Program-made: the position numbers and the translations under genes | In this document: positions 10,932 through 59,069 of the stretch, piece by piece | Layout: each line of letters opens with the position of its first letter | How positions within the stretch are numbered: the stretch's first letter is position 1 | Source of the DNA: a candidate division Kazan bacterium GW2011_GWA1_50_15 | GTDB taxonomy: Bacteria > Patescibacteriota > Kazan-3B-28 | Length of the DNA: 64,000 nt | Reading direction: 5' to 3' | Assembly (NCBI GenBank): GCA_001029795.1 | Contig: CP011216.1 | Span: 350,767-414,766, forward strand | The notes under the pieces: model-generated | What the model saw: only the letters and a program-made list of their open reading frames with translations | What the model was told of the DNA's origin: nothing | The model's database searches: none

Positions 10932-11005
10932 CCACCCGTAGCTCAGCGGACCAGAGCGTCTGACTACGGATCAGAAGGTCGTGGGTTCAAATCCCATCGG
11001 GTGGT
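10932..11005 (+). tRNA. tRNA-Arg (anticodon ACG)
   Basis: Hand-folded cloverleaf: acceptor CCACCCG/CGGGTGG, anticodon loop CTACGGA, T-loop TTCAAAT. Confidence 0.8.
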
Positions 11006-11028
11006 TATTTTCTCCGCTCTACCTCCGT

Positions 11029-11100
11029 GCGCCTATAGCTCAACGGACAGAGCATCCGCCTTCTAAGCGGGGGGTGCGGGTTCGACTCCCGCTAGGCGTA
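11029..11100 (+). tRNA. tRNA-Arg (anticodon TCT)
   Basis: Acceptor GCGCCTA/TAGGCGT, anticodon loop CTTCTAA, T-arm GCGGG-TTCGACT-CCCGC. Confidence 0.8.
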
Positions 11101-11108
11101 GGTTTACT

Positions 11109-11182
11109 GCGCTTGTAGCTCAGCGGACTAGAGCGCGAGATTCCGAATCTCGAGGGCGGGGGTTCAAATCCCCTCAAGCGCA
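11109..11182 (+). tRNA. tRNA-Arg (anticodon CCG)
   Basis: Acceptor GCGCTTG/CAAGCGC, anticodon loop TTCCGAA. Confidence 0.8.
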
Positions 11183-11195
11183 TTTGTTCTTTCTT

Positions 11196-11267
11196 GCCTC
11201 CGTAGCTCAATGGATAGAGCAGCAGTTTCCTAAACTGCGGGTACGGGTTCAACTCCCGTCGGGGGCC
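11196..11267 (+). tRNA. tRNA-Arg (anticodon CCT)
   Basis: Acceptor GCCTCCG/CGGGGGC, anticodon loop TTCCTAA, T-arm ACGGG-TTCAACT-CCCGT. Confidence 0.8.
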
Positions 11268-24824: not shown

Positions 24825-26342
24825 ATGGGGGTAGTAACGCTGGCAAAAATTCAGAGCGCGGCGGTGCTGGGACTCTCGGCCGTGCCGGTAGAGGTGGAGG
24901 TGGACATCAGCAACGGTCTGCCGTTATTTAAGATTGTCGGCCTGCCGGACAAAGCGGTGGAGGAAGCTAAAGAGCGGGTCCGCTCGGCCATTAAAAATTC
25001 GGGGATGCATATGCCGGACAAGCGCATCACGGTAAATTTAGCGCCGGCTGATGTCAAAAAAATTGGACCGGCCTATGACCTGCCCATCGCGGTGGGACTC
25101 TTGGTAGCCTCTGGCCAAATCAACTTGCCAGATGAGGACTCGGTCTTCATCGGCGAACTGGCCTTAAACGGCGCCGTGCGGCATACCAACGGAGTGCTGG
25201 CTATCGCTTCATCCACCGCTAAAATCGGCCAAGCCACGGTCTATGTCCCCCGCCCTAACGCCGACGAGGCGGCTTTGGTGAAAGGCACGACGACTATTCC
25301 TGTCACAACACTCAAGGATCTGATTTTGCACTGCCGGCAAGAGAAGATGATTTTGCCGTATCCGCACAAAGATATTGTGCCAGTCCCGCCCTCGCCTTTA
25401 TTTGATATGAGTCACATCGCCGGCCAAGAACAGGCCAAGCGAGCATTAGAAATAGCCGCGGCTGGCGGACATAATATTCTAATGACTGGCCCGCCCGGGA
25501 GCGGCAAAACAATGCTAGCCCAAGCCCTGCCCGGAATTCTACCGGATATGGCCACCGAAGAAATTTTGGAACTAACCAATATTCATAGCGTGGCGGGGAT
25601 TTTGGGCAACCAACCGTTTGTGTCTACCCGTCCATTCCGCAGTCCGCACCACACTTCGTCGTATGTGGCTCTGATCGGCGGCGGCAACTGGCCCCAGCCG
25701 GGCGAGGTGTCGCTGGCCCACCGCGGGGTGTTATTCTTGGACGAACTGCCCGAATTCCCCCGGCAGGTCTTGGAGGTCCTGCGTCAGCCGTTGGAGGAAG
25801 GAGCGGTGCATATCGCCAGAGCCGCCGGCAAAGTGTCCTTCCCGGCCCGATTTATGCTGGTGGCGGCCAAGAATCCTTGTCCTTGCGGCTACTACAATGA
25901 CCCTGAACGGCAGTGTACCTGCTCGGCCGGGCAGATCGAGACCTACAACCGTCGCATCTCTGGGCCGCTCTTGGATCGGATCGATATTCATATTGAGGTC
26001 CCGCGGGTAGAATACGACAAACTCCGCCGGCCAGAGGCGGCTGAATCGTCCACCAGCGTGCGCCAGCGGGTCAGCTCGGCTCGAGCCGTCCAAGCCAAGC
26101 GATTCGCCGGCTCCCCCACCCTGACCAATGCCGAGATGACGACAGACGAGCTGAAAGCATTCTGCGCGTTAGACGAAGCAGGGGAGAGTTTGCTCGAAAG
26201 CGCGGTGCGCACTTATTTCTTGTCGCCCAGAAGTTTCACGCGGATATTAAAATTGGCCCGCACCATCGCGGACCTATCATCCTCCCTCGCCATCCAGCCC
26301 CAGTATTTGGCAGAAGCGATCCGCTACAAAATAGTCGAATAG
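24825..26342 (+). CDS. comM: YifB/ComM-family Mg-chelatase-like AAA+ ATPase
   Basis: N-terminal Lon-like domain (AYDLPIAVGLL), Walker A GPPGSGKT, Walker B LFLDEL, and the C4 zinc cluster CPCGYY..C.C; 505 aa. Confidence 0.85.
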   Translation: MGVVTLAKIQSAAVLGLSAVPVEVEVDISNGLPLFKIVGLPDKAVEEAKERVRSAIKNSGMHMPDKRITVNLAPADVKKIGPAYDLPIAVGLLVASGQINLPDEDSVFIGELALNGAVRHTNGVLAIASSTAKIGQATVYVPRPNADEAALVKGTTTIPVTTLKDLILHCRQEKMILPYPHKDIVPVPPSPLFDMSHIAGQEQAKRALEIAAAGGHNILMTGPPGSGKTMLAQALPGILPDMATEEILELTNIHSVAGILGNQPFVSTRPFRSPHHTSSYVALIGGGNWPQPGEVSLAHRGVLFLDELPEFPRQVLEVLRQPLEEGAVHIARAAGKVSFPARFMLVAAKNPCPCGYYNDPERQCTCSAGQIETYNRRISGPLLDRIDIHIEVPRVEYDKLRRPEAAESSTSVRQRVSSARAVQAKRFAGSPTLTNAEMTTDELKAFCALDEAGESLLESAVRTYFLSPRSFTRILKLARTIADLSSSLAIQPQYLAEAIRYKIVE

Positions 26343-26638
26343 GTCGTTTCCTGCCGGCCCTTTGGAACGAGACCCTTTCTTCACGGGACCCATCGAGCAA
26401 ATTCAGATTGCCAATAGCAAAATCGCCCGGTCTGGATAAGCATGTCTGACGAGGGCTTTAGCCCGAGGAGTTTGCGGTTAAATCCAGAAAGGGTGATTTT
26501 GGTTTTTGGCAACTGAATTAGTGAGTGGGATGCCCTTTTGGCGCCACCGTTTTGGGCAAACAAAATGGTGGCAAAAACGAACGACCACCGAGAGGCGGTC
26601 TAGATTCTTCACTTCGTTCAGAATGACAAATAAAAAAA

Positions 26639-26965
26639 CTAATTAAACAACCGCCCCGCGGACAATATCCATTGCATCAGCGCGGTGTTATCGGTTGCCC
26701 ACTTGGCGACGAACAGCAAACCCACCATTCCCAGTAAAAGCGGTATTAAAACGACTAGGTCGCGCTTAACCGTTGTGTGACTCTCGCTGGCAATGGCGTC
26801 AGACGAGGCCTCTTTGGTAGAGGCCACTGATTGAACCGGAACCGCCCCCGGGGTATACGAATCCGCCAGCTGGCGGGCCGCTGTGGGAGCGGACATTCCT
26901 GCTTCGCGATGCAGGGCTTGGAGCCGCTGCAGTTCGCGGAGCTGTTTGTGGCGTTTCTTAGACAT
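26639..26965 (-). CDS. small membrane-anchored protein (hypothetical)
   Basis: 108 aa with a basic N-terminus and one C-terminal TM helix. Confidence 0.35.
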   Translation of the reverse strand: MSKKRHKQLRELQRLQALHREAGMSAPTAARQLADSYTPGAVPVQSVASTKEASSDAIASESHTTVKRDLVVLIPLLLGMVGLLFVAKWATDNTALMQWILSAGRLFN

Positions 26966-26980
26966 GTATCTCTTTTATCC

Positions 26981-27088
26981 GTCATCCTCGGGCTTGGCCC
27001 GGGGATCCAGACAGAAACACAACGCATTTTTCTGTTCTTTTCTGGATTCCCGCTTTCGCGGGAATGACGAAGTATGGGACGGGATGAC
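26981..27088. repeat. MITE-like palindromic repeat, copy 1 (TIR GTCATCC / GGATGAC)
   Basis: Its first 38 nt are near-identical to copy 2 at 34586; there is an internal GGGATCCAGA / TCTGGATTCCC inverted repeat. Confidence 0.55.
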
Positions 27089-27111
27089 GGGACAAATGAT
27101 TTGAGCGCAGA

Positions 27112-27232
27112 GTACCCGCGACGACCTACTTTTGCAGGACCTTGCGGTCCAACTATCATCGGCCCTGGAGGGCTTGACTGCTCTGTTCGGGATGGGAAGA
27201 GGTATAACCCCTCCGGTATCATCACGGGGACT
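27112..27232 (-). rRNA. rrf: 5S ribosomal RNA
   Basis: The reverse complement reads CCCATCCCGAACAGAGCAGTCAAGCCCTCCAGGGCCGATGATAGTTGG...CTGCAAAAGTAGGTCGTCGCGGG, which is collinear with E. coli 5S loop A/B/C motifs (CCGAAC...GCCGATGGTAGT...AGAGTAGG). Helix I forms between the ends. Confidence 0.75.
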
Positions 27233-27246
27233 CTAGACTCAAACTG

Positions 27247-27543
27247 TTAATGTTTGTCGGGTGAGAAAAATTCGCGAAGCCGCCGCATATTTTCTTCCAG
27301 CGAGACCAATAGCAGGATCTGTTCGGCAACGGCCAGGAAGAGAATGGTGTACAAAACACTGATCAGCAGCACCCCTAGCGCGGTGACCCAGGCCGATCCT
27401 TGGGCCAGCTGAACCCCATAGTTGGACAAAATGTTTGGACTGAACATAGCGACAACGGCCAGTGCGATCCCGCTGGCAAACACCAGCCAGCCGATGGCCC
27501 GTAGAACATATACCAAAGTTCTTAACATTTTGAACTTTTTCAT
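27247..27543 (-). CDS. small two-TM membrane protein encoded in the 23S-5S spacer
   Basis: 98-aa ORF on the same strand as the rRNAs, with a GGGGGAGA SD 5 nt before the ATG and two hydrophobic helices. Confidence 0.45.
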   Translation of the reverse strand: MKKFKMLRTLVYVLRAIGWLVFASGIALAVVAMFSPNILSNYGVQLAQGSAWVTALGVLLISVLYTILFLAVAEQILLLVSLEENMRRLREFFSPDKH

Positions 27544-27631
27544 GGAGTCTCCCCCGATAGTTATTAATCTACAGATACACCATAACTGAAAAATTTTCAG
27601 TTGGCAAAACCGATGCCAGACTTGGATCGTC

Positions 27632-27650
27632 GATCTAAAAGCGTTAGCAC
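27632..27650 (-). promoter_or_regulatory. 3' half of the 23S precursor processing stem (RNase III-type)
   Basis: Perfect 19-nt complement of 32098..32116, bracketing the 23S gene. Confidence 0.7.
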
Positions 27651-27803
27651 TTATCTCTTGGGAAAAAGAGTAGATGTAAGTAATTAACTTATTAGTACGA
27701 CTCGGCTGAACCCATTACTGGGCTTACACCTGTCGCCTATCAACCAAGTGGTCTCCTTGGAGTTTCTCCCCCCTTGCGGGGGATGGAAATCTATCTTGGG
27801 GTG

Positions 27804-27836
<33 letters not shown>

Positions 27837-27970
27837 CATCCGCACGTAGCTACCCGACAATGCTCTTGGTAGAACAGCCGGTACACCAGAGGTGCGTTCG
27901 CTTCGGTCCTCTCGTACTAGAAGCGACTTCCCTCAAATTTCCTTCGTCCACAGCAGATAGAGACCGACAA

Positions 27971-28747
27971 TTTGTTACTTTGCAAACCACATCCAATACT
28001 GATGTTGCTCTGTGGTGACCATACCTTTCGGTAGGATTCTACATATCGCTATGCAGTTCGGACTATATCTTTCCTGCCGTGTGGCAGGACTTGGCATATA
28101 GTCTCTGAGGATTCTAAATTGGCAAGAATTTTGTCTTTGTCTAGCTTGCGATACCTCCCTCCCCCATTCATCGAGAAGGCCTTAATAATAATTTTCTTGA
28201 GGCCATTCTTTTCAAGATGGTGGTTGGTTCGCATAGCGGAGACGATTTCAGCAAACTTTTGAAAATCAGTTTGTTTGGAAGACAAGAGGGGATAGTGTCG
28301 AAAAAACGGGATTACTTTAGTCAGCAAATCGTGACGATCCCTAACTACCAGCACCTGACTTTTGTCAGTTAGGCTGGTCCGGTGATTATCCTTGATGTAG
28401 CCACAACCCAGCAACTGCTGGATCTCGCGCAACATCGAAGCCCGTTCCTGGTTCTGGCTGACATGAAATTCGGGAATCACCTGATACCCAAGCTTCACAT
28501 TCGGGCTTTTTTGGATAGCCACATGAAAGCTACCTTCTCCATCAACATATCCCGCAACATACCAACTTAGTCTTTCCTGCTGATTGTCTGCACTCATACA
28601 TTTTCACTTTGCCAATCTTGATCTCATTATAAAATATAGAGACCATATTGGCAATAGTAGTATAGAGATACTCAGAGTTTCCAGCATTTAGCCAAGTTTA
28701 TAGACAGCGCAGTCATACATTATTCGCTCCTAGAGCGAATAATTACC
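27971..28747 (-). mobile_element. group I intron in 23S domain V/VI, at or next to the I-CreI-type homing region after GAGACAGT
   Basis: Exon sequence is continuous with E. coli up to GTCGTGAGACAGT and resumes at TTGTCGGTCTCTATCTG. The intervening roughly 777 nt carry a LAGLIDADG ORF. Boundaries are +/-15 nt. Confidence 0.6.
28049..28597 (-). CDS. LAGLIDADG homing endonuclease (single-motif, I-CreI-like size)
   Basis: WYVAGYVDGEGSFHV is the LAGLIDADG motif; 182 aa; same orientation as the rRNA, inside the intron. Confidence 0.8.
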   Translation of the reverse strand: MSADNQQERLSWYVAGYVDGEGSFHVAIQKSPNVKLGYQVIPEFHVSQNQERASMLREIQQLLGCGYIKDNHRTSLTDKSQVLVVRDRHDLLTKVIPFFRHYPLLSSKQTDFQKFAEIVSAMRTNHHLEKNGLKKIIIKAFSMNGGGRYRKLDKDKILANLESSETICQVLPHGRKDIVRTA

Positions 28748-28748
28748 C

Positions 28749-28814
<66 letters not shown>

Positions 28815-28828
28815 AACCTGCTCCAGCT

Positions 28829-28859
<31 letters not shown>

Positions 28860-28891
28860 AAACCGCTTCGTCGATATGGACTCTTGGAAGC

Positions 28892-28923
<32 letters not shown>

Positions 28924-29382
28924 TCGTTGAGCTTCGGCGCACCCATGTGCAACCGTCGGATCACTATATCCTGCTTTCGCATCTGCTTGACTTGTAGGTC
29001 TCGCAGTTAAGCTCCCATATACTATTGCGCTATCGTCCCGATTTCCATCCGGGACTAGGGAACCTTTGAACGCCTCCGTTACTTTTTGGGAGGCAACCGC
29101 CCCAGTTAAACTACCCACCAAACGCTGTCCCCCTGCCAGATAATGGCTAGAGGTTAGGATTAAGAAATAGTCAGGGTGGTATTTCACCGTTGACTCCACC
29201 CCGACTAGCGTCGGGGCTTCACAGTCTCCCACCTATCCTACACAAACCAGCTCCTAACCCAGCGTCAAGTTGTAGTAAAGCTCCACGGGGTCTTTTTGTC
29301 TTGCTGCGGATAGCCGGCATCTTCACCGGCAATGTAGTTTCGCCGAGTCCCTCTTTGAGACAGTCATCAGACCGTTACGCTA

Positions 29383-29457
<75 letters not shown>

Positions 29458-29479
29458 AGGGCTTAGTGTTGGAGCTTCT

Positions 29480-29541
29480 CCCGCCAATTTAAAGTTCGTA
29501 CTCGTGTGCTGCTACGCGAATACCAGCTCTAAATTGGCGGG
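29480..29541 (-). mobile_element. TIR-bounded IVS-like insertion A in 23S (domain IV helix tip)
   Basis: 62 nt bounded by CCCGCCAATTTAAAG ... CTCTAAATTGGCGGG. It replaces the GCGCAAGC loop between GGGGTTA and GAAGCTC. Confidence 0.6.
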
Positions 29542-30067
29542 ATAACCCCTCTACGTGACCTTCTGGCACCGGGCAAGCGTCAGCCCCTATACCTCCTCTT
29601 TCGAGTTAGCAGAGACCTGTGTTTTTGCTAAACAGTCGCCTGATGTCTTTAGCTGCGGCCCCCCACTTTCTACGCACCAACTTGCGTTGCTTAGCGCATG
29701 AGCGCTATGCGCAGAAAGTGGGGGGCAGTCCTTATTCCGAAGTTACGGACGCTATTTTGCCGAGTTCCTTAAAGAGGGTTCTCTCGTGCGCCTTAGGCTA
29801 CTCGCCCTATCCACCTGTGTCGGTTTAGGTACGGATGCTCAATGTTCTCGCTAGAGGTTTTTCTGGTCAACTTAGATCAGCCAAATCGCCTTGTCCCGAA
29901 AGACTCAACTTTCCATTACAACTCGCGGTTCTCCGATTGCTCGGACGTTCCCCGGATTTGCCAAAGGAACCCACTTGTTGCTTAGACTGAGAAACCTATC
30001 TCAGCTCGGCCTACCAACTTGCGTCACCCCATTGCTAGACGTGCAGACCAGCAGAACCAGCATCCAT

Positions 30068-30169
30068 CCCGCCAATTTAACGCTTGTACCTATGGTTATC
30101 TCTCGACCAATTACATATAAACGTAAAACGATTAAGAAACTACCAAGATACCAGCCCTAAATTGGCGGG
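30068..30169 (-). mobile_element. TIR-bounded IVS-like insertion B in 23S (domain III variable helix)
   Basis: 102 nt bounded by CCCGCCAATTTAA ... CCCTAAATTGGCGGG. Confidence 0.6.
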
Positions 30170-30537
30170 ACGATCATCTGGCCTACCAGTTTGCTTGTCT
30201 TGGGCGAACATTAAGCAGTACAGGAATATTAACCTGTTGTCCATCGCCTACGCCTTGCGGCCTCGGCTTAGGACCGACTAACCCTGGGTCGAAAACCGTC
30301 GCCCAGGAAACCTCGGATAAATCGGCGTTAGAGTTTTTCACTCTAATCTCGCTACTCGTGCCAACATTCTCACTTCTGCGCGCTCCATCCAACCTCGCGG
30401 TTAAACTTCACTGCTGCGCAGAACGCTCCCCTACCGCTCTGCCTTACGGCAGAGCCCGCATCTTCGGTATTCAGCTTAGCCCCGTTAAATTTTCGGCGCA
30501 GACACACATCGACCAGTGAGCTGTTACGCTTTCTTTG

Positions 30538-30568
<31 letters not shown>

Positions 30569-31066
30569 TTGTTCATGTGTCTCCACTTCCTTTCACACTT
30601 AGCTGAATTTAGGGACCTTAGATGGCGGTCTGGGCTGTTTCCCTTTCGACATACGACGCTTAGCCGCCGTTTTCTGACTCCCGGGCTTAACCGGACAGTA
30701 TTCGGAGTTTAATTGGACGCGGTACGGTAAACCGCCCGAATCCATTCAGTAGCTCTACCACTGCCGGGAACGCTCTGAGGCTATACCTAAATATATTTCG
30801 GGGAGAACCAGCTATCTCCGGGTTCGATTGGAATTTCTCCGCTAACCACAGTTCATCCCCCCACTTTTCAACGTAGGTGGGTGCGGCCCTCCACTGCTTT
30901 TTACGGCAGCTTCAGCCTGACCATGGTTAGGTCACCCGGTTTCGGGTCTAATCCCTGCTACTTCAATCGCGCTATTCGCACTTGCTTTCGCTTCGGCTGC
31001 GAACGATAAGTTCTTAGCCTTGCAACAGAAATTAACTCGTTGGCTCATTCTACAAAAGGCACGCCG

Positions 31067-31330
31067 TCACCCCGCCATTTTAAAGCTCGTATCTAAACGC
31101 TGTTTCAACCTAGTCCAAGTTGTTCCATAATTTTTCAGCAGTTTTTCTCGTTTGTAAGCCGCGTGGGGGTCACGATAGGCTTCATAATATACGAGGTTAA
31201 AACTGCCATGCCCTTGATGGGCTGAAAACCTCTGGCGCAGGCTTTTGGTCTGGCCAATGTATGGTTTATGGGTTTTTAGATTGAGTAAGACATAGACATA
31301 GTGCATGTCTACATCATATAGCGTCGACAC
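31067..31330 (-). CDS. minimal GIY-YIG nuclease (87 aa) encoded inside 23S insertion C
   Basis: YVYVLLNLKTHKPYIGQTKSLRQRFSAHQ is GIY-(10 aa)-YIG with the conserved Arg and His; a downstream YYEAY Glu is present. The C-terminal FKMAG* is encoded by the TIR itself, and the gene has the same orientation as the rRNA. Confidence 0.65.
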   Translation of the reverse strand: MSTLYDVDMHYVYVLLNLKTHKPYIGQTKSLRQRFSAHQGHGSFNLVYYEAYRDPHAAYKREKLLKNYGTTWTRLKQRLDTSFKMAG

Positions 31331-31349
31331 CAGCGCTAAAATGGCGGGG
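31071..31349 (-). mobile_element. TIR-bounded insertion C in 23S helix 25, carrying a GIY-YIG ORF (putative autonomous copy)
   Basis: 279 nt bounded by CCCGCCATTTTAAAGCTCGTAT ... GCGCTAAAATGGCGGG (an A/T compensatory pair keeps the ends complementary). It replaces the helix-25 hairpin, which is the classic IVS site. Confidence 0.6.
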
Positions 31350-31408
31350 CTCCGACTTTTAGATGGGCATTCGGTTTCAGGTACTATTTCACTCCCCTCG
31401 CCGGGGGA

Positions 31409-31447
<39 letters not shown>

Positions 31448-31829
31448 GAGAAGTGATATTTAGCCTTACCAGATGGTCCTGGCACATTCCGGCGGGATTT
31501 CACGGGTCCCACCGTACTTAAGAAATAACGCTCAGAGTGATCTTCTTTTCGCTTACGGGACTATCACCCTCTTTGGTTGCCCTTTCCAGGGACCTTTAGC
31601 TAAGAAAATCATTTGTAACTCCTCATTTGGTCTACCGCCCAAAATGCATTATCCTTGTAACCCCCTCCTGCGCAACGCCAGTAGGCTTTAACACGCAAGA
31701 GAGTTTAGACTTCTCCCTTTTCGCTCGCCACTACTTAGGGAATAACATTTGTTCTATTTTCCTCGTGCTACTAAGATGTTTCAGTTCGCACGGTTTCCTC
31801 CACATCGCCTATGTATTCAGCAATGGGTT

Positions 31830-31929
31830 CCCGCCAATTTAAAGCTCGTATATCGCTACTGCCCACCCGACTAATTAACGAATTATTTATCGGTTGGGAT
31901 ATTTGATATACCAGCCCTAAATTGGCGGG
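31830..31929 (-). mobile_element. TIR-bounded IVS-like insertion D in 23S (helix 9 tip)
   Basis: 100 nt bounded by CCCGCCAATTTAAAGCTCGTAT ... ATACCAGCCCTAAATTGGCGGG. It replaces the hairpin between GATTTCCGAATGG and GAACTGAAACATCT. Confidence 0.6.
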
Positions 31930-32097
31930 AGGATTGCTCCATTCGGAAATCCCCGGATCACAGGTTGCTTGACACCTACCCGAGGCCTAACGCGGTCTGC
32001 TACGTCCTTCTTCGGTCACTTCTCCCAAGGCATCCACCGCATGCCCTTGAGTAACTTACACGCTCTTTTATCTCAAGAGACGAGTGCCTTACACTTT

Positions 32098-32116
32098 AGA
32101 TCGACGATCCAAGAAA
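32098..32116 (-). promoter_or_regulatory. 5' half of the 23S precursor processing stem
   Basis: Perfect 19-nt complement of 27632..27650. Confidence 0.7.
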
Positions 32117-32299: not shown

Positions 32300-32334
32300 G
32301 TAAAAATCAAAAAGGCAGGGCGTTCACCCTGCTG
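32300..32334 (-). terminator. rho-independent terminator upstream of the rRNA operon (insulates it from the 33280..34005 gene)
   Basis: Minus-sense GCAGGG-tgaacg-CCCTGC followed by CTTTTTGATTTTT. Confidence 0.5.
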
Positions 32335-32593
32335 GTCAAAAATCAGTCAGTCAGGTGAACCTATGTTCGCAGCAGGTTTTGCAAATATAAAATAGCCAAG
32401 TCGTACAGGCCAGATGCAAGATTAAAAATTAGATGCCCCAAAAGCTTACAAAATGTAGTATAGCGAGTGTCTGGCGGCGTGCCAGAAGCACTAGTTGCAA
32501 GAGTACTATATACAGAGGTGGCTTGCAAGAGATATTCTGCCACCTTTTTCTAGCAGGGTCAAGAGTGGGCCCAAGGTGGGATATAATCAGAGG

Positions 32594-58681: not shown

Positions 58682-58697
58682 CCCAGTGCAAAATATG

Positions 58698-59069
58698 GGG
58701 CTGTCTAGCTTTCGACAGCGAACCTTGATAGCTGTTGGTCGCATACCGTTGCTGGTACCGTAACGCAAAATCGTACCAAACTACAAATGCCAACAAAGCA
58801 TTTAGCGGAAGCTCTGCTTTCGCGCCAGCGCTAGCCTAATTGCCAGCGCCATCGTTCCCGTCTCTGCTCGGATGGGCGGAATAACGGTGTCATATTATTC
58901 GAGCCGCTTTCCGGCAGGCCATTTGCCGGGACTAAGACCATAGTGGCTTAAGTTATTATCGCTTTGTCGGTTTGAGGATAATAACGGATACCCAACAAAC
59001 CGGCTATGTATGTAGAAGCCGACAGTTATCGTTCGCTGGACGGGGGTGCGAATCCCCCCAGCTCCACCA
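58698..59069 (+). ncRNA. ssrA: tmRNA (SsrA)
   Basis: 5' GGGGCTG pairs with 3' CAGCTCC-A-CCA. The 3' tRNA-like T-arm is GGACGGGGGTGCGAATCCCCC. The candidate tag ORF GCC AAC AAA GCA TTT AGC GGA AGC TCT GCT TTC GCG CCA GCG CTA GCC TAA reads ANKAFSGSSAFAPALA*. smpB lies 1.3 kb upstream. Confidence 0.7.

What the first reader, a model, noticed from the sequence alone, without database searches (positions are those of the whole stretch)
27247..27543. Protein-coding gene embedded in the 23S-5S spacer of the rRNA operon
A 98-aa two-TM ORF with a strong SD (GGGGGAGA-5 nt-ATG) lies on the rRNA strand between the 23S 3' processing stem (27632..27650) and the 5S gene (27112..27232). No terminator or promoter is visible in between, so it would be co-transcribed at rRNA-level abundance and released by rRNA processing. 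A protein gene inside an rRNA operon spacer is rare. It could be a lineage-specific ribosome or membrane factor, or a selfish passenger.
Basis: partly seen in the sequence, partly recalled or inferred. Interest (0 to 1): 0.5.

Follow-up and report, generated by a model that had tools for sequence, protein, structure and literature searches.

The report
Membrane-protein gene between 23S and 5S rRNA
In a whole lineage of ultra-small "Kazan" bacteria, a real, selected gene for a tiny two-pass membrane protein sits between the 23S and 5S rRNA genes, so close to the 5S precursor stem that message and ribosomal RNA must share one transcript.

Summary
ORF 27543..27247(-) encodes 98 aa with two hydrophobic helices. 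It lies on the rRNA strand between the 3' strand of the 23S processing stem and the 5S gene. The window matches candidate division Kazan bacterium GW2011_GWA1_50_15 (CPR), where the ORF is annotated only as a hypothetical protein.

It is a real gene. Thirteen distinct orthologues, down to 33% identity, all sit next to the rRNA genes. The 5S follows in all 13, and the 23S end is seen wherever the contig reaches upstream (10 of 13). dN/dS is 0.04-0.10 and differences concentrate at third codon positions.

In 9 of 13 loci the stop codon lies within -5..+13 nt of a 14-20 bp 5S precursor stem. That leaves no room for a terminator or promoter, so co-transcription with 5S is the only simple reading. 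A second conserved small membrane ORF (26965..26639) follows the 5S.

In fact a sigma-70-like site (27607..27579) follows the 23S stem, and its key positions are invariant in relatives.

A wider, unannotated family of this protein exists elsewhere, but none of 80 such loci carries rRNA. The function is unknown. I found no description in the literature.

The parts
32094..32113 (-). Core of the 5' strand of the 23S processing stem (CTTGGATCGTCGATCTAAAG), in the 23S leader
   Evidence: Sequence read. It is the reverse complement of 27641..27621.
27672..27967 (-). 3' exon of the 23S rRNA, downstream of the group I intron/LAGLIDADG insertion at 28748..27968
   Evidence: blastn against intron-less relatives L001 and L012 aligns 27967..27678 to their 23S 3' ends. 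Rfam Intron_gpI hit. Pfam LAGLIDADG_1, E 1.9e-25.
27611..27671 (-). 3' strand of the 23S processing stem (core 27641..27621). The 23S primary transcript must extend at least this far.
   Evidence: TTTAGATCGACGAT(C/T)TAAG is conserved in most close relatives; L001 and L006 differ here.
27579..27607 (-). Sigma-70-like promoter: -35 TTGCCA (27607..27602), 17-nt spacer, -10 TATGGT (27584..27579), followed by conserved TGTA (27573..27570) near the expected start site
   Evidence: Consensus scan. In alignment A2 the invariant columns are -35 positions 1, 2 and 5 and -10 positions 1, 2, 3 and 6. Deeper relatives carry extended -10-like TGnTAAnAT. Function is inferred, not shown.
27548..27555 (-). Shine-Dalgarno-like GGGGGAGA, 4 nt before the ATG; not conserved in orthologues
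27247..27543 (-). orf1: 98-aa two-pass membrane protein (GenBank AKM84845.1, hypothetical protein VE98_C0001G0388). Family motif: F-x-M-L-R-T, G-W, TM1, P, TM2 with invariant E74, then (L/I)EEN
   Evidence: (dN/dS 0.04-0.10).
27230..27244 (-). 5' strand of the 5S precursor stem (GTTTGAGTCTAGAGT), beginning 3 nt after the orf1 stop codon
   Evidence: Fold of 27300..27040, z = -4.9. The flank duplex is found in all 13 loci with lineage-specific sequences and is much more stable than shuffles.
27113..27229 (-). 5S rRNA gene
   Evidence: Rfam RF00001, 90.9 bits.
27099..27114 (-). 3' strand of the 5S precursor stem (ACTCTGCGCTCAAAT)
26979..27090 (-). Palindromic insertion (CCGTCATCC ... GGATGACGG) between the 5S and orf2. 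It is absent from relatives in which orf2 starts 12-37 nt after the 5S.
   Evidence: Sequence. The core TCATTCCCGCGAAAGCGGGAATCCAG occurs once in the window.
26639..26965 (-). orf2: 108-aa protein with a basic N-terminus (MSKKxxKxLKELQRLQALH) and one C-terminal TM helix. It is conserved downstream of the 5S in all 12 loci where the contig reaches that far (the window plus 11 relatives).
   Evidence: Alignment A5. pN/pS 0.25-0.6 with an excess of third-position differences. TM helix at residues 69-87. No Pfam or PDB relative.
26583..26600 (-). Terminator-like hairpin plus T-run after orf2; probable end of the transcription unit
   Evidence: The next gene, a ComM/Mg-chelatase-like gene at 24825..26342(+), is convergent.

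Best explanation
orf1 is a real, vertically inherited gene for a small N-in/C-in two-pass inner-membrane protein. In the Kazan clade of CPR bacteria it is fixed between the 23S and 5S rRNA genes. It forms a mixed mRNA-rRNA transcription unit, orf1-5S-orf2. The unit is transcribed by read-through from the 23S gene, from a conserved sigma-70-type promoter immediately after the 23S processing stem, or from both. The 5S is cut out at its own double-stranded precursor stem. That stem begins within a few nucleotides of the orf1 stop codon, and in some relatives it overlaps the orf2 start codon, so 5S maturation also separates the two messages. The consequence is that synthesis of two small membrane proteins is tied to 5S and ribosome synthesis. 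The biochemical role of the protein is unknown. The best guess is a non-enzymatic membrane subunit or adaptor whose conserved membrane-embedded Glu74 and juxtamembrane EEN motif mediate a partner or ion interaction. Shown: gene reality, conserved position, the stems, and the lack of space for separate signals. Inferred: promoter activity, read-through, processing sites, topology. Speculative: function.
For: Thirteen distinct orthologues (33-80% identity) were found. The 5S lies downstream in all 13, and the 23S 3' end lies upstream wherever the contig reaches it (10 of 13) (Rfam). NG86 dN/dS is 0.04-0.10. Differences by codon position are, for example, [21,7,50] and [5,3,25]. The deeper clade also shows a third-position excess. 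The 23S 5' and 3' flanks form a roughly 20-bp perfect core duplex ending at about 27611, so the 23S precursor reaches the promoter-like site, and no terminator-like site follows before the ORF. The promoter-like hexamers have the correct 17-nt spacing, and their invariant columns fall on the canonical key positions. Deeper relatives have extended -10 motifs. A candidate promoter upstream of the 23S shares the same TAT..T-N4/5-TTGTAAG layout that close relatives (e.g. L011, L009) show at the spacer site; the window's own spacer site reads CTGTAG there. The stop-to-5S gap is 15-26 nt in 9 of 13 loci, and the 5S precursor stem starts -5..+13 nt from the stop. Stems differ in sequence between lineages yet remain paired, at -19 to -27 kcal/mol against -6 to -14 for shuffles. 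orf2 is conserved after the 5S, and a terminator-like site appears only after orf2. Two TM helices, positive-inside charge distribution, and a confident helical-hairpin model support the topology.
Against: There are no expression data: no transcriptome, 5'-end map or peptide. All relatives are metagenome assemblies. The SD is not conserved. In four lineages (L001, L009, L011/L008, L014) the orf1-5S gap is 53-212 nt, so tight abutment is not universal and a separate 5S promoter is possible there. The promoter call is only a consensus match (9 of 12). Its count in the scanned region is not above the shuffle expectation (2 found, 1.5 expected). Only its conservation argues for function. No homology of any kind hints at a function.
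Confidence: 0.72

Rival explanations
1. The 5S is effectively unlinked from the 23S. orf1-5S-orf2 is an independent operon driven only by the spacer promoter, and 23S transcripts end or are degraded after RNase III cleavage of the 23S stem. orf1 is then an ordinary first gene of a small operon that happens to contain the 5S, expressed at mRNA-like rather than rRNA-like levels.
For: A promoter-like element is conserved immediately 3' of the 23S stem. The 16S is already unlinked in this genome, with none in the 64-kb window, so dispersed rRNA units are normal here.
Against: No terminator-like site lies between the stem (ending about 27611) and the ORF. The -35 hexamer starts 4 nt after the stem, so read-through transcripts must at least enter the unit. 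This differs from the best explanation only in where the transcripts originate.
Confidence: 0.2
2. It is a chance ORF. The spacer is conserved as RNA (processing signals) and merely happens to be open in one frame.
For: Spacers do carry conserved stems. The SD is not conserved.
Against: Synonymous sites are saturated (pS 0.7-0.9) while pN is 0.11-0.23 among close relatives. There is a third-position excess, no stops or frameshifts in 13 orthologues down to 33% identity, a conserved TM pattern and motifs, and a protein family of 53 cluster representatives.
Confidence: 0.01
3. It is a selfish or toxic passenger: a mobile-element cargo, holin-like protein or type I toxin-like small membrane protein lodged in a safe, highly transcribed site.
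For: It is small, has two TM helices and a charged C-terminus, like class II holins. Two of 33 family members give weak Phage_holin_3_6 hits (E 0.012), and one gives a PADLOC '2TM effector' hit (E 0.0086). The same operon hosts mobile introns.
Against: There is no endonuclease, transposase or intron core around it. It occupies the same site across a deep clade with strong purifying selection. Only one of 33 members gives even a weak PHROG hit (phrog_14595, E 0.0045). Wider family members sit among housekeeping genes: purA, a glycolipid glycosyltransferase, SIS-domain proteins. There is one copy in the window.
Confidence: 0.04

Closest known systems
Proteins encoded inside rRNA genes: homing endonucleases in rRNA group I introns/insertions of CPR bacteria (PMC11270868) and 23S IVS proteins (S23p family; from my own knowledge)
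   Same: A protein-coding sequence on the rRNA strand, transcribed as part of an rRNA precursor and separated from it by RNA processing. This very operon carries such a LAGLIDADG ORF at 28049..28597.
   Different: orf1 is outside the rRNA genes, in the 23S-5S spacer. It has no nuclease or IVS-protein domain and encodes a membrane protein. It is fixed and vertically inherited rather than sporadic. PMC11270868 surveys insertions within the 16S, 23S and 5S genes and does not mention spacer genes.
Genes in rRNA operon spacers: tRNA genes in 16S-23S or distal positions (e.g. E. coli, PMC5179076), and protein genes separating rRNA genes in unlinked arrangements such as the Borrelia 16S-23S region (from my own knowledge)
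   Same: Non-rRNA genes lie between rRNA genes and are released from a common precursor by the stems that flank the rRNAs.
   Different: Here the passenger is an mRNA lying 15-26 nt from the 5S, within the normally short and gene-free 23S-5S spacer. A second ORF lies on the other side of the 5S.
Pfam DUF4282 / DUF485 small two-TM proteins (the automatic UniRef names for P0001 and P0015)
   Same: About 100 aa, two TM helices, function unknown.
   Different: The window protein has no DUF4282 or DUF485 hit even at E <= 1. Only 5 of 33 family members touch DUF4282 weakly (best E 5.9e-4), and none touches DUF485. The two UniRef names contradict each other.
Unannotated 'IEENTR' two-TM family (53 cluster representatives; 220 metagenome relatives)
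   Same: Same architecture and motifs (F/Y-x-x-L-R, (K/R)-x-x-x-W, TM1, TM2, A-E, I-E-E-N-T-R). Profile E-values range from 1e-7 to 1e-3 for distant members and down to 1e-21 for closer ones.
   Different: None of 80 loci (398 kb) of the distant branch contains 23S or 5S. They lie among ordinary metabolic and envelope genes. The rRNA-spacer location is specific to the Kazan branch.

Membership tests
Protein-coding gene under selection (versus chance ORF) | dN/dS well below 1, an excess of third-position changes, and a frame kept intact across divergent relatives | tested here: met
   dN/dS 0.04-0.10. Differences by codon position [21,7,50] and [5,3,25]. Thirteen orthologues have no stops or frameshifts.
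Component of the 23S-5S rRNA transcription unit | Same strand, located between the 23S 3' processing stem and the 5S, with no terminator in between | tested here: met
   The position is conserved wherever the contig covers the flanks: 5S downstream in all 13 orthologues, 23S end upstream in 10 of 13.
Component of the 23S-5S rRNA transcription unit | Actual co-transcription with the rRNA and release by processing | not testable with these tools
   No transcriptome or 5'/3'-end data are available. It is inferred from the 15-26 nt stop-to-5S gap and the abutting precursor stem.
Intron- or insertion-encoded homing endonuclease (LAGLIDADG, GIY-YIG, HNH) | An endonuclease domain and a location inside an rRNA insertion | tested here: not met
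   orf1 has no such Pfam domain and lies outside the 23S. The neighbouring ORF 28049..28597 does meet both criteria.
Pfam DUF4282 (PF14110) | A match to the family HMM at or above the gathering score | tested here: not met
   P0001 has no hit at E <= 1. Five of 33 relatives match weakly, best E 5.9e-4.
Pfam DUF485 (PF04341) | A match to the family HMM | tested here: not met
   It is not among the hits of any of the 33 members at E <= 0.1, despite the UniRef name of P0015.
Phage holins (class II, two TM helices) | Membership of a holin family, and a lysis-cassette or phage context | tested here: not met
   One of 33 members has a single weak PHROG hit to a family of unknown function (phrog_14595, E 0.0045). 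Phage_holin_3_6 matches only 2 of 33 at E 0.012. The context is an rRNA operon plus comM, a PGA_cap gene and argS.
Anti-phage defence 2TM effectors (PADLOC) | A match to a defence-system model, with partner genes nearby | tested here: not met
   One of 33 members matches at E 0.0086, and the window protein does not match.
Sigma-70 promoter in the spacer | -35 and -10 hexamers at 16-18 nt spacing, conserved in relatives | tested here: met
   TTGCCA-17-TATGGT. The invariant alignment columns fall on -35 positions 1, 2 and 5 and -10 positions 1, 2, 3 and 6. Activity was not tested.

The most novel reading that the evidence does not exclude
orf1-5S-orf2 is an obligatory tricistronic precursor in which translation and 5S maturation are mechanically coupled. 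A ribosome terminating on orf1 would cover the 5' strand of the 5S precursor stem. The 3' strand of that stem overlaps the orf2 start in some lineages, so processing could create a near-leaderless orf2 message. The two products would form a membrane complex (a two-pass protein plus a tail-anchored basic protein) acting on ribosomes: a tether, or an assembly or hibernation factor. This would give ultra-small CPR cells a direct feedback between ribosome production and the membrane.
Probability: 0.12. Interest if true: 0.8.

Novelty: new variant of a known kind. Interest (0 to 1): 0.55.

Why it matters
The bacterial 23S-5S spacer is normally short and gene-free, and the 5S is treated as a pure rRNA-operon product. 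Here a whole CPR lineage keeps a selected membrane-protein gene there, with a second one just after the 5S, so one precursor must yield both messenger and ribosomal RNA.

This gives a natural system for three questions. How are mRNAs translated and stabilised inside rRNA precursors? How do the fast, antiterminated RNA polymerase and the rRNA-processing nucleases deal with a coding region? Do genome-reduced bacteria tie envelope components to ribosome synthesis?

There is also a practical point. Annotation pipelines and rRNA-operon surveys that ignore spacers, or that trust covariance-model ends in intron-bearing rRNA genes, will miss or misplace such genes. The wider 'IEENTR' two-TM family is common in metagenomes yet absent from Pfam and NCBIfam.

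Tried and rejected
- **Family and structure searches.** Pfam, NCBIfam, PHROGs, PADLOC and PDB sequence searches on the protein and on 33 family members gave only sub-threshold, mutually inconsistent hits.
- **Fold search.** Foldseek of the AlphaFold2 model against the PDB found nothing below E = 1, only generic helical hairpins such as ATP-synthase c subunits. The afdb50 library was unavailable.
- **UniRef names.** 'DUF4282' and 'DUF485' were rejected as membership claims after testing.
- **Locus searches.** The search for related loci failed with the broad alignments A4 and A7 because they had no conserved stretch. It worked with the narrower A9. The GTDB scan returned only two Kazan genomes.
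- **Duplex prediction.** A whole-flank duplexfold over 360 x 490 nt over-extended the pairing and was used only to locate the core stem, which I then checked by eye.
- **Third protein-database search.** The search on the distant branch returned unnamed proteins only.
- **Literature.** Searches for a gene in a 23S-5S spacer, for Kazan rRNA operons and for Kazanbacteria found no description of this arrangement. One query was malformed.
- **orf2.** It has no Pfam or PDB relative.
- **Explanations rejected.** Chance ORF; mobile passenger; an extra copy elsewhere in the window.

Full report
**1. What is there**

On the minus strand the window carries a 23S-5S rRNA unit. Rfam finds the 5S at 27113..27229 and a 23S hit at 28626..32060. 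The 23S end coordinate is misleading. blastn against intron-less relatives shows that the 23S continues after a 781-nt insertion (28748..27968) into a 3' exon at 27967..27678. That insertion holds a group I intron core and a LAGLIDADG ORF.

The ORF named in the finding is exactly as described: 27543..27247(-), ATG start, 98 aa. It lies between the 23S 3' flank and the 5S. GGGGGAGA sits 4 nt upstream of the ATG. The protein is 100% identical to hypothetical protein VE98_C0001G0388 (AKM84845.1) of candidate division Kazan bacterium GW2011_GWA1_50_15, a CPR bacterium.

**2. It is a real gene**

The protein database holds orthologues at 80, 78, 68, 67 and 37% identity. A profile search adds many at 33-43%. 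I fetched the encoding contigs of 12 of these orthologues and scanned them with Rfam.
- The 5S lies downstream of the ORF in all 13 distinct orthologues, counting the window's own.
- The 23S 3' end lies upstream wherever the contig reaches that far, which is 10 of 13 (Rfam).
- The contigs come from independent assemblies (ENA, JGI, NCBI) and different samples, so misassembly is not an explanation.

Nei-Gojobori analysis gives dN/dS of 0.04-0.10 wherever dS is not saturated. Differences concentrate at third codon positions, for example [21,7,50] for window versus L002 and [5,3,25] for L011 versus L009. The deeper clade shows the same pattern. There are no stops or frameshifts. The chance-ORF explanation is therefore rejected.

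**3. The protein**

Kyte-Doolittle windows give two hydrophobic segments, residues 16-34 and 55-73. There are five K/R in the first 15 residues, an uncharged loop and a charged C-terminal helix. This indicates an N-in/C-in topology.

AlphaFold2 with 36 orthologues gives a helical hairpin (H5-34, H36-41, H51-93) with mean pLDDT 85.4. E74, inside the second hydrophobic helix, is invariant. W19, P36, G43, W52, A71, S81, E83 and N85 are nearly invariant.

An exhaustive profile search finds 53 cluster representatives at E <= 1e-3. They share the pattern F/Y-x-x-L-R ... W - TM1 - TM2 - A-E ... I-E-E-N-T-R. No Pfam, NCBIfam, PHROG, PADLOC or PDB family matches at a meaningful level. Foldseek against the PDB gives only generic hairpins at E > 1. 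The automatic UniRef names, DUF4282 for this protein and DUF485 for an orthologue, are not reproduced by direct HMM scans.

**4. The RNA anatomy around it**

(a) The 23S 3' flank at 27641..27621 is the reverse complement of 32113..32094 in the 23S leader. Pairing extends on both sides to about 27611. The 23S primary transcript must therefore run to within 70 nt of the ORF. No terminator-like site follows before the ORF.

(b) Four nucleotides after that stem lies a sigma-70-like site, TTGCCA-17-TATGGT (27607..27579).
- In the alignment of eight relatives, the invariant columns are -35 positions 1, 2 and 5 and -10 positions 1, 2, 3 and 6, plus a TGTA near the expected start. These include the positions that matter most for promoter function (from my own knowledge).
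- The deeper clade has extended -10-like motifs in the same interval: TGTTAAAAT, TGGTAAGAT, TGGTAATAT and TGGTAAAAT.
- A candidate promoter upstream of the 23S shares the TAT..T-N4/5-TTGTAAG layout that close relatives such as L011 and L009 show at the spacer site; the window's own spacer site reads CTGTAG at that position.

(c) The 5S is flanked by an extended precursor stem of 14-20 bp in all 13 loci. Its sequence differs between lineages but stays paired, at -19 to -27 kcal/mol against -6 to -14 for shuffles. In 9 of 13 loci the stem starts -5 to +13 nt from the orf1 stop codon, and the stop-to-5S gap is 15-26 nt. No terminator-plus-promoter can fit there, so orf1 and the 5S must share a transcript in those lineages.

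(d) A second ORF follows the 5S on the same strand in every one of the 12 loci where the contig reaches that far: the window plus 11 relatives. In the window it is 26965..26639, 108 aa. It has a basic N-terminus (MSKKxxKxLKELQRLQALH) and one C-terminal TM helix, and it shows a coding-type substitution pattern. In relatives it starts 12-37 nt after the 5S, and in L002/L004 its ATG lies in the 3' strand of the 5S stem. In the window a 112-nt palindromic insertion (27090..26979) separates them. The only good terminator-like hairpin is after orf2, at 26600..26583. The next gene, comM-like, is convergent.

**5. How it most likely works**

The simplest model is a mixed unit: [23S] - stem - P - orf1 - [5S in its stem] - orf2 - terminator. 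Transcripts enter from the 23S, from the spacer promoter, or from both. Double-strand-specific cleavage of the two rRNA stems releases the rRNAs and thereby cuts out the orf1 and orf2 messages.

The conserved position, the stems, the spacing and the selection are shown. Promoter use, read-through and cleavage sites are inferred. The outcome would be production of two small membrane proteins in step with 5S and ribosome synthesis.

What the proteins do is unknown. A non-enzymatic membrane adaptor or subunit is the most economical reading of a 98-aa hairpin with one buried invariant Glu.

**6. Where the protein comes from**

A scan of JGI metagenomes with the distant branch of the family found 220 relatives. 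None of the 80 retrieved loci (398 kb) contains 23S or 5S sequence. Their neighbours are ordinary genes: convergent purA, an MGDG-synthase-like glycosyltransferase, SIS-domain proteins and DUF951. The protein family is therefore broad and is not linked to rRNA outside this clade. The spacer location is a derived trait of the Kazan branch. This also argues against a mobile or selfish element, as do the single copy in the window, the near-absence of phage-family hits (one weak PHROG match in 33 members) and the absence of defence-system membership.

**7. Comparison with what is known, and novelty**

Proteins encoded within rRNA operons are known as intron- or insertion-encoded homing endonucleases. 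These are abundant in CPR (PMC11270868), and one is present in this same 23S. IVS proteins are a second known case (from my own knowledge). tRNA genes in spacers are classical (PMC5179076).

A selected, non-mobile membrane-protein gene abutting the 5S precursor stem, with a second ORF on the other side, is a different arrangement. Six literature searches found no description of it (paper checks). The ORF itself is in GenBank as a hypothetical protein, so the sequence is not new. The architecture and its conservation appear to be undescribed. I rate it a new variant of a known kind, with interest 0.55.

**8. Limits**

There are no expression data. Every relative is a metagenome-assembled sequence. 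The promoter is a consensus match supported only by conservation. Four lineages have longer orf1-5S gaps (53-212 nt), so tight coupling is not universal. The library I searched omits most subscription-journal papers, so earlier mention cannot be excluded.

Noticed in passing
window 27968..28748 (-), ORF 28049..28597: The 23S gene is split by a 781-nt insertion holding a group I intron core (Rfam E 4.7e-8, below the gathering score) and a 182-aa LAGLIDADG endonuclease ORF (Pfam E 1.9e-25). Because of this, Rfam's reported 23S 3' end (28626) is wrong; the real 3' exon is 27967..~27672.
   Followed up: partly
window ~31829..31930, ~31072..31348, ~30068..30198 (-): Three further stretches of the 23S have no counterpart in the 23S of relatives L001 and L012. 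These look like extra expansion or insertion segments, which are typical of CPR rRNA.
   Followed up: no
window 26639..26965 (-): orf2 is a 108-aa protein with a basic N-terminal helix and one C-terminal TM helix. It is conserved directly downstream of the 5S in all 12 loci that extend that far (the window plus 11 relatives) and has no known family. In L002/L004 its ATG lies inside the 3' strand of the 5S precursor stem.
   Followed up: partly
window 26979..27090 (-): A 112-nt palindromic element (CCGTCATCC...GGATGACGG, containing the hairpin ATTCCCGCGAAAGCGGGAAT) is inserted between the 5S and orf2. It is absent at this site in relatives and occurs once in the window. It may be a MITE-like insertion.
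   Followed up: partly
whole window: There is no 16S rRNA gene within 27 kb downstream or 32 kb upstream of the 23S-5S unit, so the 16S is unlinked in this genome.
   Followed up: no
window 32315..32332 and 32457..32485 (-): Upstream of the 23S, a promoter-like site (CTGGCA-17-TATACT, followed by TTTGTAAG) is separated from the 23S by a terminator-like hairpin (GCAGGGTGAACGCCCTGC plus a T-run). It is unclear whether this is a leader attenuator, a small RNA or chance.
   Followed up: no
L012 5670..6236; L021 5540..6019; L011/L008 (212-nt gap): In some relatives extra material sits inside the orf1-5S-orf2 unit: a Ser_hydrolase gene or a 159-aa ORF between the 5S and orf2, or about 200 nt between orf1 and the 5S. 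The unit therefore tolerates insertions.
   Followed up: no
L023-L102 (metagenome loci): The wider 'IEENTR' two-TM family has 220 relatives in JGI metagenomes and is absent from Pfam and NCBIfam. Recurrent neighbours are a convergent adenylosuccinate synthetase, an upstream MGDG-synthase-like glycosyltransferase with DUF951, or an upstream SIS-domain protein.
   Followed up: partly
window 58697..59069 (+); 10932..11267 (+): There is a tmRNA gene (151 bits) and a cluster of four tRNA genes. Both are ordinary.
   Followed up: no
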